64,000 nucleotides of DNA from the NCBI GenBank assembly GCA_019058365.1, contig JAHPZE010000007.1, positions 64,001 to 128,000 of the forward strand, in the 5' to 3' direction. The stretch comes from Promethearchaeota archaeon. GTDB lineage: Archaea > Asgardarchaeota > Lokiarchaeia > Sigyniarchaeales > SOKP01. The notes under the pieces are model-generated. The model saw only the letters and a program-made list of their open reading frames with translations, was not told where the DNA came from and did not search any database. Of this stretch, positions 48,673-54,328 are shown piece by piece; position 1 is the stretch's first letter, and every line of letters starts with the position of its first letter. Made by a program: the position numbers and the translations under genes.

Positions 48673-49815
48673 TCATTCTTTTATGTCCTTGGGGTTTATT
48701 TCTTTGCCAAGCATGGAGGATTTTAAAGCTGCTAAAGCAAATTGTGTTGTATATTTTCCTTCCTCCCCCGATAATATTGGATCTCCACCATTCTTTATTG
48801 CTTCAATGAAATGGTGAGTTGAATTTATAAATCCATATTTCCAATCTCGTTCCATATCTGAGATCGTTTCAATTTTTCCATCTCGGAAGATAACAATTGC
48901 GGGAAAAAACTCTGATTTGGACATGGTATTGCCTCCAGCAGTTGCTTGATTTATCCACATAATTCCCTCTGAGCCCGTAATAGATATAAATTCATCCTCG
49001 GGATAATAGGGACTAGGTAAAGTCATGTTTGGAGAATAATTATATTCCATATTTCCATATGTAGGCACAAAAAAATCTGAATCCTGTGGAGGTGCGTACT
49101 TCCACATTATATAAGCAGGGGCATCTAAATTATTAAATCTGTCAATCCATGAATAGACTTTTTCAATTTTTGCCCCAATTAAGTGTATGGCTAACCAAAA
49201 TTTATGGAATCCGTCATCAAATATAATAGGGGATCCACATTCCAATCCACCACCACACAATTTTGGATCTAACCTCCATATCCATGTTGTAGTAGTTATA
49301 TCCCACCCTCCTTTAGATGCTTCAAGTGTTTTAATGTGAATTGAATTTACTTCACCTATAATTCCCTCTTCTAATAATTGCTTCGCTCTCATAATTGGAG
49401 GATAAAAAGTGAAGTTTTCAAAGATTTTTAGCTTTATATTATTATTCTTGCAAGCATTAATCATTTTATCGCAGTCTTTGATAGAGTGTGCCATTGGTTT
49501 TTGTACACTTATTCCTAAAATATTTTTTTGAGTTGCATAAAGAGTCACTTCACAATGTAAATGATGAGGTAATAAAATTTCTAGAATATCAATGTTTTCG
49601 ACATCAAGCATTTCTTTATAATCATGATAATGTCTAACATCGGACCCTAGATTAAACTTTTCAATCTTCTCTTTAATATGTCTTTCTTTACTATCACATA
49701 AACAAGTAATTTCAATATCATCACGATTTAAATAGCCCAGTATATTAAGATCAAAAATAACTCCGCATCCAATGATTCCAACTTTTAATTTTTCCATGAT
49801 TTTCCTCGTTTTCAT
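48673..49815 (-). CDS. Gfo/Idh/MocA oxidoreductase
   Basis: GIIGCG, PHHLH, QKPMA, DDGFH. Confidence 0.9.
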   Translation of the reverse strand: MKTRKIMEKLKVGIIGCGVIFDLNILGYLNRDDIEITCLCDSKERHIKEKIEKFNLGSDVRHYHDYKEMLDVENIDILEILLPHHLHCEVTLYATQKNILGISVQKPMAHSIKDCDKMINACKNNNIKLKIFENFTFYPPIMRAKQLLEEGIIGEVNSIHIKTLEASKGGWDITTTTWIWRLDPKLCGGGLECGSPIIFDDGFHKFWLAIHLIGAKIEKVYSWIDRFNNLDAPAYIMWKYAPPQDSDFFVPTYGNMEYNYSPNMTLPSPYYPEDEFISITGSEGIMWINQATAGGNTMSKSEFFPAIVIFRDGKIETISDMERDWKYGFINSTHHFIEAIKNGGDPILSGEEGKYTTQFALAALKSSMLGKEINPKDIKE

Positions 49816-51847: not shown

Positions 51848-53413
51848 TTGTTATATAAAAATATAATGTCATTATTAGATAAATTGCAAAGGAAAAAAGG
51901 GAAGAGGTGGATTATCCTTTATGTTGTTTTATGTATTAATTTGATAATTTTTCTTACATTAATTCATACAATTGAACCTTATTGGTATGAAATTAATTCA
52001 GAGGTATCAAGTTGGGTAGGATTTGACTTTGATATTGTTCTTTTAGTAAGGATAATTCTAATATTACCATTACTTTATGGTTTAGTATTAATTTTCATCA
52101 ATATAAGAAAATTTACACAAGCAGATGAGCTAAAACCCTGTACTTTAAATAAAATAATACCGTTTATCTTGATTGTCTTGTATAATGTCATATTTAGTGT
52201 TTTATTATACTTTTTTGACCAATATGGGCAAGTTAGGAGAATTTTACAAGTTTTGGATTTTTATAGTATTTACATTATTTTTATTCTTGATATCCTTCTT
52301 ATAGTCTTATTATATCCAATAATCAAAACTGTACCTAAATTAAAAAATTATCTTTCAAGAAAATACTTAGATCCATATAAGAAAGCATTGATAATAGTTA
52401 TATGCCTTATCAGTTGTTACATTTTTACTTTTACAATTCCAATAATATATCGACCTTCAAATGTGATAAATGGAGATTTACCACCAAAACCAGATTTGAT
52501 TGCTCACAGAGGTGCTTCATCCTTAGCTCCAGAAAATACAATTGAAGCGGGTCTTGCAGCTCTTGAATATAATACCGTTATTGGATGGGAAGTAGACATT
52601 AAAATTAGTTTTGATGGAGTTCCGTTTTTAATGCATGATGATACATTATTGAGAACAACCAATGTATCAGATCATTTTCCCAGTAGAAAATACGATAAAG
52701 CAGAAACATTTACAATTTCAGAACTTCGAGAATTAGATGCAGGTTCTTGGTTTGTGGAAGAGGATCCTTTTGATACCATCTCAAAAGGAATTATATCTTA
52801 TGCAAAAGCAGAGTCATACAAGGGTATAAGAATTCCTACTTTTGAAGAAGTCCTTAACTTCACACGGGATAATAATTATTATTTAGATTTTGATGCCGAT
52901 AGGCCAGATCCTAGTCATCCTTATTATGAGGATTTTTATGAAATTCTCTTAAATATGACTATTGAATCTGGTGTTGATTTATCTAAAATGATGATTCCAA
53001 CTTCTAATTCAGAATGGATTGAAATGATCAATATTCGTGCCCCTAATATTTTATTAGGATGGCCCGGTTCACCATCCCCTATTGAATTTGAATCTTCTTC
53101 TTATAATTATTCTTATATTAATACGGATGATACATATTCAAATGCTGGATATCAAGCTTTATATCAATCAAATTTATCAGTAATGGTATATACAATCGAC
53201 GCAAAGGAAAGACATTCTCAATTATGGTGTCTTGGAGCAAAATGGGTGAAAACAAATACTCCTTATAAATTCAACGATTTAACAAAACCTCTGTGGTATA
53301 TGAATATTCTAACTTATGAAACAATATGGTTTATTTTTATTATTGCTGCTATTAGTTCTGCAATTATAATAAAATTTATACTAATTGAAAAATTCAAGGT
53401 AAGAAAAAAATGA
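51848..53413 (+). CDS. Six-TM glycerophosphodiester phosphodiesterase, GDE2/GDPD5-like
   Basis: 5 N-terminal TM; PKPDLIAHRGA..LAPENT, ISFDGVPFLMHD.TL.RTTNV, LWCLG, PLWYM; C-terminal TM. Confidence 0.9.
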   Translation: MLYKNIMSLLDKLQRKKGKRWIILYVVLCINLIIFLTLIHTIEPYWYEINSEVSSWVGFDFDIVLLVRIILILPLLYGLVLIFINIRKFTQADELKPCTLNKIIPFILIVLYNVIFSVLLYFFDQYGQVRRILQVLDFYSIYIIFILDILLIVLLYPIIKTVPKLKNYLSRKYLDPYKKALIIVICLISCYIFTFTIPIIYRPSNVINGDLPPKPDLIAHRGASSLAPENTIEAGLAALEYNTVIGWEVDIKISFDGVPFLMHDDTLLRTTNVSDHFPSRKYDKAETFTISELRELDAGSWFVEEDPFDTISKGIISYAKAESYKGIRIPTFEEVLNFTRDNNYYLDFDADRPDPSHPYYEDFYEILLNMTIESGVDLSKMMIPTSNSEWIEMINIRAPNILLGWPGSPSPIEFESSSYNYSYINTDDTYSNAGYQALYQSNLSVMVYTIDAKERHSQLWCLGAKWVKTNTPYKFNDLTKPLWYMNILTYETIWFIFIIAAISSAIIIKFILIEKFKVRKK

Positions 53414-53596: not shown

Positions 53597-54328
53597 ATGT
53601 TGGCACAATTAACTGGATTTGAAATATTTTATGGAAGTTTTACATTAATATCTGTTATAATATCCACCGTATTAGGTCTTTTTATTGCATTAAAGTATTT
53701 ACAGCATAAAAAAATAGAATTACTTTTAGTTGGAATTACATGGATACTTTTAGCAAGCCCATACTGGTCTGATGCGATACAATTTATTACAAATACATTT
53801 TTCGGGATAAGCCTAGATCCACCTTTGTATTTCTTCTTAGCTAATGCGTTTATTGCTCCAATTCATATTACATGGCTTTATGCTTTTACTAATTTTCTTT
53901 TTAAGAAGCAACAGAAGAAAATAATGCTATTCTTTACCATTGAGGCAATATTTTTTGAAATTGTCTTTTTGTATGTCTTTTTTTTGAATCCTTTTCTAAT
54001 CGGAGACCAAAGAAGTGCTTTTGTAGTAGAATGGGCAATATGGATACAAGTTTACTTATTATTTTCGATAATTCTATTCTTAGTTACTGGATTTTTATTT
54101 GCTAGAATCAGTCTAAAAGCAGATTCTTCTGAAATTAAACTAAAAGGAAAATTTTTAATAATAGCATTTCTAACTTTTACAATTGGAACGATGATAGATG
54201 TTATTGGAGCAGAAAATCCTACAGAAATAACTATTTTTTTTGCCAGAACTTTTGTAATTGTTAGTTCGATCTGCTTCTACATAGGATTCACATTACCTAG
54301 ATTCATCAAAGAATTATTTATAAAATGA
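53597..54328 (+). CDS. Stand-alone ~7-TM membrane protein
   Basis: Seven hydrophobic segments, no soluble domain. Confidence 0.75.
   Translation: MLAQLTGFEIFYGSFTLISVIISTVLGLFIALKYLQHKKIELLLVGITWILLASPYWSDAIQFITNTFFGISLDPPLYFFLANAFIAPIHITWLYAFTNFLFKKQQKKIMLFFTIEAIFFEIVFLYVFFLNPFLIGDQRSAFVVEWAIWIQVYLLFSIILFLVTGFLFARISLKADSSEIKLKGKFLIIAFLTFTIGTMIDVIGAENPTEITIFFARTFVIVSSICFYIGFTLPRFIKELFIK

What the first reader, a model, noticed from the sequence alone, without database searches (positions are those of the whole stretch)
51848..53413. Asgard counterpart of metazoan six-TM GDE2/GDE3 (GDPD5/GDPD2) GPI-anchor-cleaving enzymes
The topology is 5 TM + GDPD domain + 1 TM, as in vertebrate GDE2/3/6. 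Subfamily-type motifs match human GDPD5 as I recall it: PKPDLIAHRGA vs PKPALIGHRGA, ISFDGVPFLMHDDTLLRTTNV vs ISLDGVPFLMHDTTLRRTTNV, AGSWFVEEDPF vs AGQWFLKTDPF, PDPSHPY vs PPREHPY, LWCLG vs LWCAG, PLWYM vs PLWIM. The metazoan enzymes shed GPI-anchored proteins. This may be an overlooked eukaryotic-signature protein acting on archaeal inositol/glycolipids or lipid-anchored surface proteins.
Basis: partly seen in the sequence, partly recalled or inferred. Interest (0 to 1): 0.78.

Follow-up and report, generated by a model that had tools for sequence, protein, structure and literature searches.

The report
Asgard six-helix GDE2-like surface phosphodiesterase
This Asgard archaeon carries an intact, outward-facing membrane enzyme that is a true full-length relative of the animal cell-surface enzymes GDE2, GDE3 and GDE6, but Anaerolineae bacteria carry it too and the trees pair the eukaryotic enzymes with the bacterial ones, so an archaeal origin of the animal enzymes is not shown.

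Summary
The ORF at 51848-53413 (+) is real; its true start is probably the ATG at 51866. It encodes 5 TM helices, a GDPD domain and 1 TM helix. The positive-inside rule puts the catalytic domain outside the cell.

The AlphaFold model (pLDDT 93.5) superposes full-length on a chordate GP-PDE cluster (TM 0.81).

The six-TM proteins form one clade, separate from soluble GDPDs (support 100). That clade has three groups: Asgard, Chloroflexota/Anaerolineae, and eukaryotes (animals, an ichthyosporean, Mastigamoeba).

Every tree pairs eukaryotes with the bacterial group (support 98.5-99, ΔlnL 18-25). AU tests reject Asgard+eukaryotes in one data set and not in two.

Within Asgard the gene is widespread but patchy: 64 of 400 genomes, including cultured Promethearchaeum syntrophicum MK-D1. 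It has no conserved neighbours.

"Counterpart of GDE2/3/6" is supported. "Eukaryotic signature protein" and GPI or inositol-lipid cleavage are not shown.

This scan met the same family in other Asgard genomes, with the same verdict. I found no publication on it.

The parts
51848..53413 (+). ORF of the six-TM GDPD protein (521 aa from TTG). The likely true start is the ATG at 51866 (515 aa).
   Evidence: ORF. (homologues P0002, P0003 and P0007 start at the residue-7 Met).
51908..52447 (+). Five N-terminal transmembrane helices (residues 21-200). The loops after TM2 and TM4 are K/R-rich, so they are predicted cytoplasmic.
   Evidence: hydropathy; model helices; 23 K/R on the inside segments against 2 on the outside loops.
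52448..53329 (+). Predicted extracellular GDPD (TIM-barrel) catalytic domain, residues 201-494. The Pfam match covers 220-472.
   Evidence: PF03009, E=8e-22. (Foldseek to B. subtilis GlpQ 5t9c, E=7e-15, TM 0.79 by target). (orientation).
52505..52513 (+). HRG motif (H220-R221-G222). H220 aligns with the His of the HRG motif of GDPD5, the residue mutated in catalytically dead GDE2(H233A) and GDE3(H229A).
   Evidence: invariant and aligned. PMC7033719 and PMC5576486.
52589..52597 (+). E248-V-D250, the ExD motif. I infer these are metal ligands of the GDPD fold.
   Evidence: D250 invariant, E248 at least 90% conserved. The metal-ligand role rests on general knowledge of GDPD structures.
52634..52639 (+). 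H263-D264 of the FLMHDD motif, the second conserved catalytic His.
   Evidence: both invariant in 45 sequences. (motif kept in 118 of the 121 closest homologues).
53330..53410 (+). Sixth TM helix (residues 495-513) and a short basic cytoplasmic tail (EKFKVRKK).

Best explanation
The gene encodes an intact, probably active member of the six-transmembrane GDPD subfamily, whose characterised members are animal GDE2 (GDPD5), GDE3 (GDPD2) and GDE6 (GDPD4).

**Anatomy.** Both termini are cytoplasmic. Five helices, plus a sixth after the domain, hold a GDPD TIM-barrel on the outer face of the cell membrane. The catalytic His pair (H220, H263) and the ExD motif (E248, D250) are intact.

**Mechanism (inferred).** It hydrolyses a glycerol-phosphate-alcohol diester close to the membrane surface. 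The most likely substrates are head groups of lipids or lyso-lipids, or glycolipid anchors in the cell's own membrane. Inositol-phosphate lipids are plausible because the genome encodes inositol-1-phosphate synthase.

**Evolution.** The protein belongs to a prokaryotic and eukaryotic family with three clades: Asgard, Anaerolineae and eukaryotes. The Asgard clade is a cousin of the animal enzymes, not a demonstrated ancestor.
For: - **Architecture and orientation:**
- **Catalytic residues:** invariant across 45 members from the three groups. They are kept in 118 of the 121 closest homologues.
- **Similarity:** metazoan GDPD5-like proteins score E=1e-38 to 1e-51 over nearly the full length. The best-ranked soluble GDPDs score about 1e-28 to 1e-33.
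- **Fold:** the full-length model matches a chordate GP-PDE cluster (TM 0.81 over 495 residues). It matches the GPDPase_memb+GDPD architecture only at TM 0.50.
- **Monophyly:** the six-TM family separates from soluble GDPDs with SH-aLRT 100 under LG+C20.
- **Three clades:** vertebrate GDPD5 and GDPD2, a sea-cucumber protein named GDPD4, Anaerolineae and named Asgard lineages.
- **Substrate plausibility:** inositol-1-phosphate synthase is present in the genome.
Against: - No activity or substrate has been tested.
- No neighbour gene is conserved across ten distant Asgard loci, so context gives no functional clue.
- Archaeal lipids are built on sn-glycerol-1-phosphate, while the characterised family members act on sn-glycerol-3-phosphate-type substrates (general knowledge). 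The native substrate may therefore differ, or may come from outside the cell.
- Orientation rests on the positive-inside rule, not on experiment.
- The long regulatory cytoplasmic tails of GDE2 are absent; the C-terminal tail here is 8 residues.
Confidence: 0.8

Rival explanations
1. True eukaryotic signature protein. The six-TM GDE arose in Asgard archaea and passed vertically to the eukaryotic lineage. Anaerolineae acquired it later by horizontal transfer, and most eukaryotes lost it.
For: - The gene is spread over many Asgard lineages, with source names Loki-/Promethearchaeota, Hod-, Hel-, Hermod- and Heimdallarchaeota. It occurs in 21 of 85 genera.
- Identity falls with taxonomic distance, as expected for mostly vertical descent.
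- In named genomes, bacterial carriers come from essentially one class.
- When rooted on soluble GDPDs, the Asgard lineages lie around the root and the bacteria+eukaryote clade is derived.
- AU tests do not reject Asgard+eukaryotes in two of three data sets (p=0.23; p=0.17).
Against: - Every analysis prefers bacteria+eukaryotes (SH-aLRT 99 and 98.5; ΔlnL 18-25).
- Asgard+eukaryotes is rejected on the ectodomain-only set (p-AU 0.005 under LG, 0.0025 under C10).
- Eukaryotic proteins are on average more similar to the bacterial clade (163 bits) than to the Asgard clade (147 bits).
- Named eukaryotic carriers are only Metazoa, one ichthyosporean and Mastigamoeba.
Confidence: 0.15
2. Eukaryotes (an ancestor of Holozoa or Amorphea) acquired the gene from an Anaerolineae-like bacterium, or both drew on a shared prokaryotic pool. 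The Asgard clade is then only a prokaryotic cousin.
For: - Bacteria+eukaryotes is the best topology in all four analyses.
- Eukaryotes show higher raw similarity to the bacterial clade.
- The known eukaryotic distribution is narrow.
Against: - The AU tests are inconsistent: the alternatives are not rejected.
- The outgroup branch is long, and many rows have an amino-acid composition unlike the alignment's.
- The direction of transfer cannot be read from these trees; eukaryote-to-bacterium or Asgard-to-both remain possible.
Confidence: 0.4
3. Functional rival: the enzyme is a membrane-tethered nutrient scavenger. It splits soluble environmental glycerophosphodiesters (lipid breakdown products) outside the cell to supply glycerol phosphate, phosphate or the alcohol. 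It does not act on the cell's own lipids or anchored proteins.
For: - The closest solved structures are scavenging or teichoic-acid-trimming GlpQ enzymes.
- The genome also holds five soluble GDPD paralogues, which suggests active glycerophosphodiester metabolism.
- The gene is accessory and patchy even within the genus (7 of 53 other genomes), as is typical of nutrient-acquisition genes.
- Sediment Asgard archaea and Anaerolineae share habitats rich in lipid debris (general knowledge).
Against: - A conserved six-helix domain kept across three domains of life is more than a simple tether would need.
- Positions in and beside the membrane helices are conserved across Asgard, bacterial and eukaryotic members: P203, K214, Y490 and W494 are each at least 90% conserved.
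- Characterised relatives act in cis on membrane-anchored substrates (PMC5576486).
Confidence: 0.3
4. The gene is contamination or a very recent isolated transfer into this genome.
For: Only 7 of 53 other genomes of the same genus have it.
Against: - GC content at the locus (0.27-0.28) is within the range seen across the window (0.26-0.35).
- Orthologues at 71-95% identity occur in genus relatives, with the same PadR, beta-lactamase-like and HAD neighbours.
- The gene is present in two closed single-contig genomes of a sister family, one of them P. syntrophicum MK-D1.
Confidence: 0.02

Closest known systems
Animal GDE2 (GDPD5), GDE3 (GDPD2) and GDE6 (GDPD4): six-TM ecto-glycerophosphodiesterases. 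GDE2 and GDE3 cleave GPI anchors, and GDE3 also cleaves glycerophosphoinositol.
   Same: - 5 TM + GDPD + 1 TM layout, with predicted cytoplasmic termini and an external catalytic domain.
- The HRG His that aligns with GDE2 H233.
- Subfamily motifs: LPxKPxLIAHRGA, DGVPFLMHDxTLxRTTNV, DAGSWFxxxDP, HPY, LWCxG, and the P..W/Y..W segment entering TM6.
- Full-length fold match, TM 0.81.
- Monophyly against soluble GDPDs.
-.
   Different: - About 33% identity in the ectodomain, with only weak similarity in TM1-5.
- Very short cytoplasmic tails: about 14 residues at the N-terminus and 8 at the C-terminus. The trafficking and regulatory C-terminal tail of GDE2 (PMC7033719) is absent.
- It keeps the canonical Glu of the ExD motif, where cetacean GDPD5 has Gln.
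- It forms a separate clade, and eukaryotes pair with the bacterial clade instead.
- The host membrane is archaeal, and the substrate is unknown.
Anaerolineae (Chloroflexota) six-TM GDPD proteins, uncharacterised, annotated only as 'glycerophosphodiester phosphodiesterase family protein'.
   Same: - Same length (about 500 aa), same 5+1 TM architecture and the same motifs.
- This is the closest pair of clades by raw score (mean 192 bits).
-.
   Different: - A separate, strongly supported clade (support 100).
- The bacterial proteins read LWLLG where Asgard and eukaryotic proteins have LWCxG.
- The trees pair the bacterial clade with eukaryotes.
Soluble or periplasmic GlpQ/UgpQ-type GDPDs, e.g. 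B. subtilis GlpQ (5t9c) and S. aureus GlpQ (2oog).
   Same: The GDPD TIM-barrel and the catalytic residues (E=1.6e-14 by sequence, 7e-15 by fold).
   Different: - No six-helix membrane domain.
- They lack the WF..DP insertion and the C-terminal LWCxG/TM6 block.
- They fall outside the six-TM clade.
- The genome has five such paralogues of its own.
Bacillota membrane GDPDs with the GPDPase_memb domain (PF10110 + PF03009).
   Same: A membrane-anchored GDPD domain.
   Different: A different membrane domain: PF10110 does not hit this protein, and the structural match is only TM 0.50.

Membership tests
Six-TM GDE2/GDE3/GDE6 (GDPD5/2/4) subfamily | Six transmembrane helices arranged as 5 + GDPD domain + 1 | tested here: met
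   Hydropathy and AlphaFold2 helices. The same count is found in metazoan members. The family definition comes from PMC5576486 and PMC7033719.
Six-TM GDE2/GDE3/GDE6 (GDPD5/2/4) subfamily | Catalytic GDPD domain is an ectodomain, and the N- and C-termini are intracellular | tested here: met
   Prediction only. The N-tail, loop 2, loop 4 and the C-tail carry 23 K/R, against 2 in loops 1 and 3. There is no experimental topology.
Six-TM GDE2/GDE3/GDE6 (GDPD5/2/4) subfamily | Catalytic His of the HRG motif (GDE2 H233, GDE3 H229) and the second His present | tested here: met
   H220 and H263 are invariant in 45 sequences. H220 aligns with H252 of the 624-aa cetacean GDPD5 isoform. I infer this is H233 in the 605-aa numbering.
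Six-TM GDE2/GDE3/GDE6 (GDPD5/2/4) subfamily | Groups with GDE2/3/6 to the exclusion of other GDPD types in a phylogeny | tested here: met
   The six-TM clade separates from soluble GDPDs with SH-aLRT 100. The outgroups were soluble prokaryotic GDPDs only. The eukaryotic GDE1, GDE4 and GDE7 were not available to include.
Six-TM GDE2/GDE3/GDE6 (GDPD5/2/4) subfamily | Full-length three-dimensional similarity, including the helix bundle | tested here: met
   TM 0.81 by query over 495 residues to a chordate GP-PDE cluster. Both sides are predicted models. The PDB copy searched returned no six-TM GDE.
Six-TM GDE2/GDE3/GDE6 (GDPD5/2/4) subfamily | Cleaves GPI anchors or glycerophosphoinositol at the cell surface | not testable with these tools
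   This needs enzyme assays. The JGI label 'glycerophosphoinositol inositolphosphodiesterase' on homologues is an automatic name transfer, not evidence.
Six-TM GDE2/GDE3/GDE6 (GDPD5/2/4) subfamily | Long cytoplasmic C-terminal tail carrying trafficking determinants (GDE2) | tested here: not met
   The C-terminal tail is 8 residues. This feature belongs to the animal proteins (PMC7033719), not to the catalytic family as such.
Asgard-derived eukaryotic signature protein | Eukaryotic homologues branch within or sister to Asgard archaea | tested here: inconclusive
   Bacteria+eukaryotes is preferred in every analysis. Asgard+eukaryotes has p-AU 0.23, 0.005 and 0.0025, and 0.17.
Asgard-derived eukaryotic signature protein | Absent or rare in other prokaryotes | tested here: not met
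   About 20 named Chloroflexota/Anaerolineae genomes carry full-length copies. 404 relatives of a bacterial member score E<=1e-10.
Asgard-derived eukaryotic signature protein | Broadly distributed in eukaryotes, traceable to LECA | tested here: inconclusive
   Named carriers are Metazoa, Chromosphaera (Ichthyosporea) and Mastigamoeba (Amoebozoa), plus an unnamed eukaryote-like contig. The profile search for more protists had poor recall.
GPDPase_memb-type bacterial membrane GDPD (PF10110) | PF10110 membrane domain N-terminal to the GDPD domain | tested here: not met
   No PF10110 hit at E<=0.1. Structural TM-score is 0.50.

The most novel reading that the evidence does not exclude
The six-helix GDE enzyme family originated in Asgard archaea and was passed to the lineage that became eukaryotes. 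On this reading, enzymatic remodelling or shedding of inositol-lipid or GPI-like anchored surface molecules predates eukaryotes, and the Anaerolineae copies are a secondary transfer. In Asgard cells the enzyme would act in cis on their own inositol-phosphate lipids or lipid-anchored surface proteins.
Probability: 0.12. Interest if true: 0.75.

Novelty: new member of a known kind. Interest (0 to 1): 0.42.

Why it matters
GDE2, GDE3 and GDE6 are studied as animal signalling enzymes that release GPI-anchored proteins in neuronal differentiation, neurodegeneration and cancer. The papers I read treat them as an animal protein family.

This result shows that the complete six-helix architecture, the catalytic site and the subfamily motifs already exist in two prokaryotic groups. 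It therefore gives the family a prokaryotic root.

It also offers small, tail-less, probably more tractable homologues for structural and mechanistic work; no six-TM GDE appeared among the solved structures I searched. One carrier, Promethearchaeum syntrophicum MK-D1, is in culture.

For eukaryogenesis it is a cautionary case. An Asgard protein that looks like a eukaryotic signature protein by motif and topology turns out, on the trees, to be no closer to eukaryotes than a bacterial counterpart.

Tried and rejected
- **Mixture-model AU test, 75 sequences:** the LG+C20 PMSF test via treekit did not finish in five calls, and an LG+C10 evaluation timed out. I replaced it with LG+F+G4 on the full set and LG+C10 on a reduced set.
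- **treekit one-clade test under LG+G4:** it found a constrained tree better than the short free search. That showed the 'quick' tree's 99 support could not be trusted alone and led to the explicit three-topology tests.
- **Gene neighbourhood:** an all-against-all comparison of ORFs from ten distant Asgard loci and the window found no family shared by three or more loci apart from the GDPD gene.
- **Signature columns:** only one column separated any pair of clades from the third, which is uninformative.
- **Profile search for more protists:** it returned only 43 hits and missed some of the query's own alignment members, so it says little about eukaryotic range.
- **Atlas look-up of the unnamed eukaryote-like clade:** it only pointed back to chordate clusters.
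- **Literature:** four searches found no paper linking GDPD or GDE2 with Asgard archaea or discussing prokaryotic six-TM homologues.
- **Contamination or recent isolated transfer:** rejected.
- **GPI transamidase:** Peptidase_C13 hits in the genome are weak and non-specific, and PIG-L is a broad family. Neither is used as evidence for GPI anchoring.
Full report
**1. What is there**

An uninterrupted ORF runs from 51848 to 53413 on the + strand (521 aa from a TTG). The closest homologues (95%, 76% and 71% identical) begin at the Met that is residue 7 here. The real start is therefore most likely the ATG at 51866.

- Pfam finds one GDPD domain (PF03009) at residues 220-472, E=8e-22. It finds no GPDPase_memb domain.
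- NCBIfam gives only sub-threshold partial matches to UgpQ/GlpQ-type models.
- Hydropathy gives five N-terminal TM helices and one C-terminal helix.
- An AlphaFold2 model built on a 45-sequence alignment is confident (mean pLDDT 93.5, pTM 0.90) and shows the same helices around a beta/alpha barrel.
- GC content at the locus (0.27-0.28) is within the range seen across the window (0.26-0.35).

**2. Orientation and catalytic competence**

The N-terminal tail, loops 2 and 4 and the C-terminal tail hold 23 Lys/Arg. Loops 1 and 3 hold 2. By the positive-inside rule both termini are cytoplasmic and the GDPD barrel is outside the cell. This is the topology described for GDE2/3/6 (PMC7033719, PMC5576486).

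H220, G222, E229, D250, H263, D264 and R269 are invariant across 45 Asgard, bacterial and eukaryotic members. R221 and E248 are at least 90% conserved. The HRG, ExD and HD motifs are all present in 118 of the 121 closest homologues.

H220 aligns with the HRG His of a cetacean GDPD5. This is the residue whose mutation inactivates GDE2 (H233A) and GDE3 (H229A). The enzyme is therefore very probably active.

**3. Is it the GDE2/3/6 subfamily?**

An exhaustive HMMER search found 8625 relatives.
- After the Asgard-type proteins come proteins of about 500-650 aa that align over nearly the whole query.
- Look-ups name several of them as GDPD5-like proteins of a crinoid, a gastropod, a nemertean and an annelid. 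Others are vertebrate GDPD5 and GDPD2, a sea-cucumber protein named GDPD4, a tunicate, amphioxus, Priapulus, the ichthyosporean Chromosphaera and the amoebozoan Mastigamoeba.
- These score E=1e-38 to 1e-51. The best-ranked soluble GDPDs come lower, at about 1e-28 to 1e-33, and match only the domain.

BLASTP against cetacean GDPD5 gives 33% identity over 326 residues, including TM6, with E=1e-40.

The full-length model superposes on a chordate GP-PDE cluster at TM 0.81 over 495 residues. It reaches only TM 0.50 on the Bacillota GPDPase_memb+GDPD architecture. Solved structures match the barrel only, and no six-TM GDE appears among the matches.

Under LG+C20 the six-TM proteins separate from soluble GDPDs with support 100. 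Membership of the architectural subfamily is therefore well supported.

**4. Who else has it?**

*Asgard.* Source names on close homologues include Promethearchaeota/Lokiarchaeota, Hodarchaeota, Helarchaeota, Hermodarchaeota and Heimdallarchaeota.
- In 400 genomes of the phylum, 64 have a match at E<=1e-20. That is 21 of 85 genera and 12 of 90 high-quality genomes. Only 7 of 53 other genomes of the window's own genus carry it.
- Identity falls with kinship: 71-95% within the genus, about 40-61% within the family, and about 31-41% beyond.
- Two closed single-contig genomes of a sister family carry it. One is named Promethearchaeum syntrophicum MK-D1.

*Bacteria.* A 16-member clade of the same length and architecture turned out to be bacterial.
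- Source names are Anaerolineae, Anaerolineales, Anaerolineaceae and one Omnitrophica MAG.
- In named genomes, full-length copies occur in about 20 Chloroflexota (Anaerolineaceae, Brevefilum, Anaerolinea). All other bacterial hits are domain-only.

*Unlabelled clade.* A small clade inside the eukaryote group lies on a contig with sparse gene calls, next to Glyco_transf_22 and the C2orf69 family. I take C2orf69 to be eukaryote-specific (general knowledge), so this contig is probably from a protist.

**5. Branching order**

Asgard, bacterial and eukaryotic proteins each form a group (support 79-81, 100 and 84-100). The question is where the soluble outgroup attaches.

| Data set | Best topology | Asgard+eukaryotes (p-AU) | Asgard+bacteria (p-AU) |
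|---|---|---|---|
| 75 sequences, 500 full-length columns | Bacteria+eukaryotes, ΔlnL 22-25; SH-aLRT 99 under LG+C20 | 0.23 | 0.29 |
| 39 sequences, 296 ectodomain columns, long branches removed, full constrained searches | Bacteria+eukaryotes, ΔlnL 19 | 0.005 (LG), 0.0025 (C10) | 0.005 (LG), 0.0025 (C10) |
| 52 sequences, 300 columns, balanced outgroup | Bacteria+eukaryotes, ΔlnL 18, SH-aLRT 98.5 | 0.17 | 0.06 |

- In the first data set, a one-clade test showed that the short free search was not reliable on its own.
- In the second, both alternatives collapse to a star topology.
- The first outgroup had been picked from hits to the Asgard query, which could bias the root. The balanced outgroup has 20 sequences: hits to the Asgard query, hits to the eukaryote profile, hits to the bacterial profile, and the genome's own paralogues.
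- Raw similarity agrees with the trees: eukaryote-bacteria 163 bits, eukaryote-Asgard 147 bits, Asgard-bacteria 192 bits.

Eukaryotes are not nested in the Asgard clade. Their preferred partner is the Anaerolineae clade. The Asgard-sister alternative is disfavoured but not consistently rejected. Rooted on the outgroup, the Asgard lineages lie unresolved around the base. This is compatible with, but does not show, an Asgard origin of the architecture.

**6. Function**

No neighbour is conserved across ten distant Asgard loci. Within the genus, the flanks (PadR, HSP20, a GFO/IDH/MocA oxidoreductase, a beta-lactamase-like protein and a HAD hydrolase) are syntenic but functionally unrelated.

The genome encodes inositol-1-phosphate synthase, so inositol-phosphate lipids are a plausible substrate. 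PIG-L and Peptidase_C13 hits are too unspecific to indicate GPI anchoring. Five soluble GDPD paralogues exist elsewhere in the genome.

*Shown:* an intact external GDPD catalytic domain on a conserved six-helix base.

*Inferred:* hydrolysis of a phosphodiester at the membrane surface, most likely on lipid or lyso-lipid head groups or glycolipid anchors in cis, by analogy with GDE2 and GDE3.

A scavenging role on external glycerophosphodiesters is a serious rival. Archaeal lipids have the opposite glycerol-phosphate stereochemistry (general knowledge), which leaves the native substrate open.

**7. Novelty and verdict**

Four literature searches found no paper connecting GDPD or GDE2/3/6 with Asgard archaea, or describing prokaryotic six-TM homologues. 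Public annotation is generic. Some JGI records carry the automatically transferred GDE3 enzyme name.

This scan has already flagged the same family in other Asgard genomes. Earlier follow-ups reached the verdict that I reached independently here.

It is a new, unpublished but database-visible member of a known kind. 'Eukaryotic signature protein' is not supported and the substrate is unknown.

Noticed in passing
Same genome, outside the window: contig C46 139087-141292 (loci L009-L011) and C46 133630-134010 (L028): Three soluble GDPD paralogues (about 240-250 aa) lie in tandem. A PIG-L-family deacetylase gene lies about 5 kb upstream. This could be a glycerophosphodiester or inositol-glycolipid turnover cluster.
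   Followed up: no
window 53597-54328 (+): A 243-aa multi-helix membrane protein lies directly downstream of the GDPD gene. It is absent from the syntenic locus of a genus relative (L007), which instead has a nitroreductase/ferredoxin gene upstream of the GDPD gene. The locus is variable within the genus.
   Followed up: partly
L054 (DATKZI010000044.1) and L056 (DATKTW010000045.1): Contigs labelled 'Candidatus Bathyarchaeia' and 'Candidatus Nanopelagicaceae bacterium' carry matches that rank among the Asgard genomes in the scan. The public labels of these bins are probably wrong.
   Followed up: partly
L015 8001-9527 (ENA contig k141_270611, 39.6 kb): An intron-less six-TM GDPD of the eukaryotic clade lies on a gene-sparse contig next to a Glyco_transf_22 (ALG9/PIG-B-type mannosyltransferase) gene and a C2orf69-family gene. 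It is probably from an unidentified protist, which would extend the eukaryotic range of the family.
   Followed up: partly
Proteins P0195 (starfish GDPD5-like) and P0199 (Owenia): Some animal paralogues have lost catalytic residues. P0195 reads AYRGA and IMRDD (both His replaced), and P0199 reads HAG instead of HRG. These may be pseudo-enzymes within the animal family.
   Followed up: no
window 48673-49815 (-): A GFO/IDH/MocA-family oxidoreductase lies three genes upstream. This family includes inositol dehydrogenases, but the gene is not conserved next to the GDPD gene in distant Asgard loci, so no link is claimed.
   Followed up: partly
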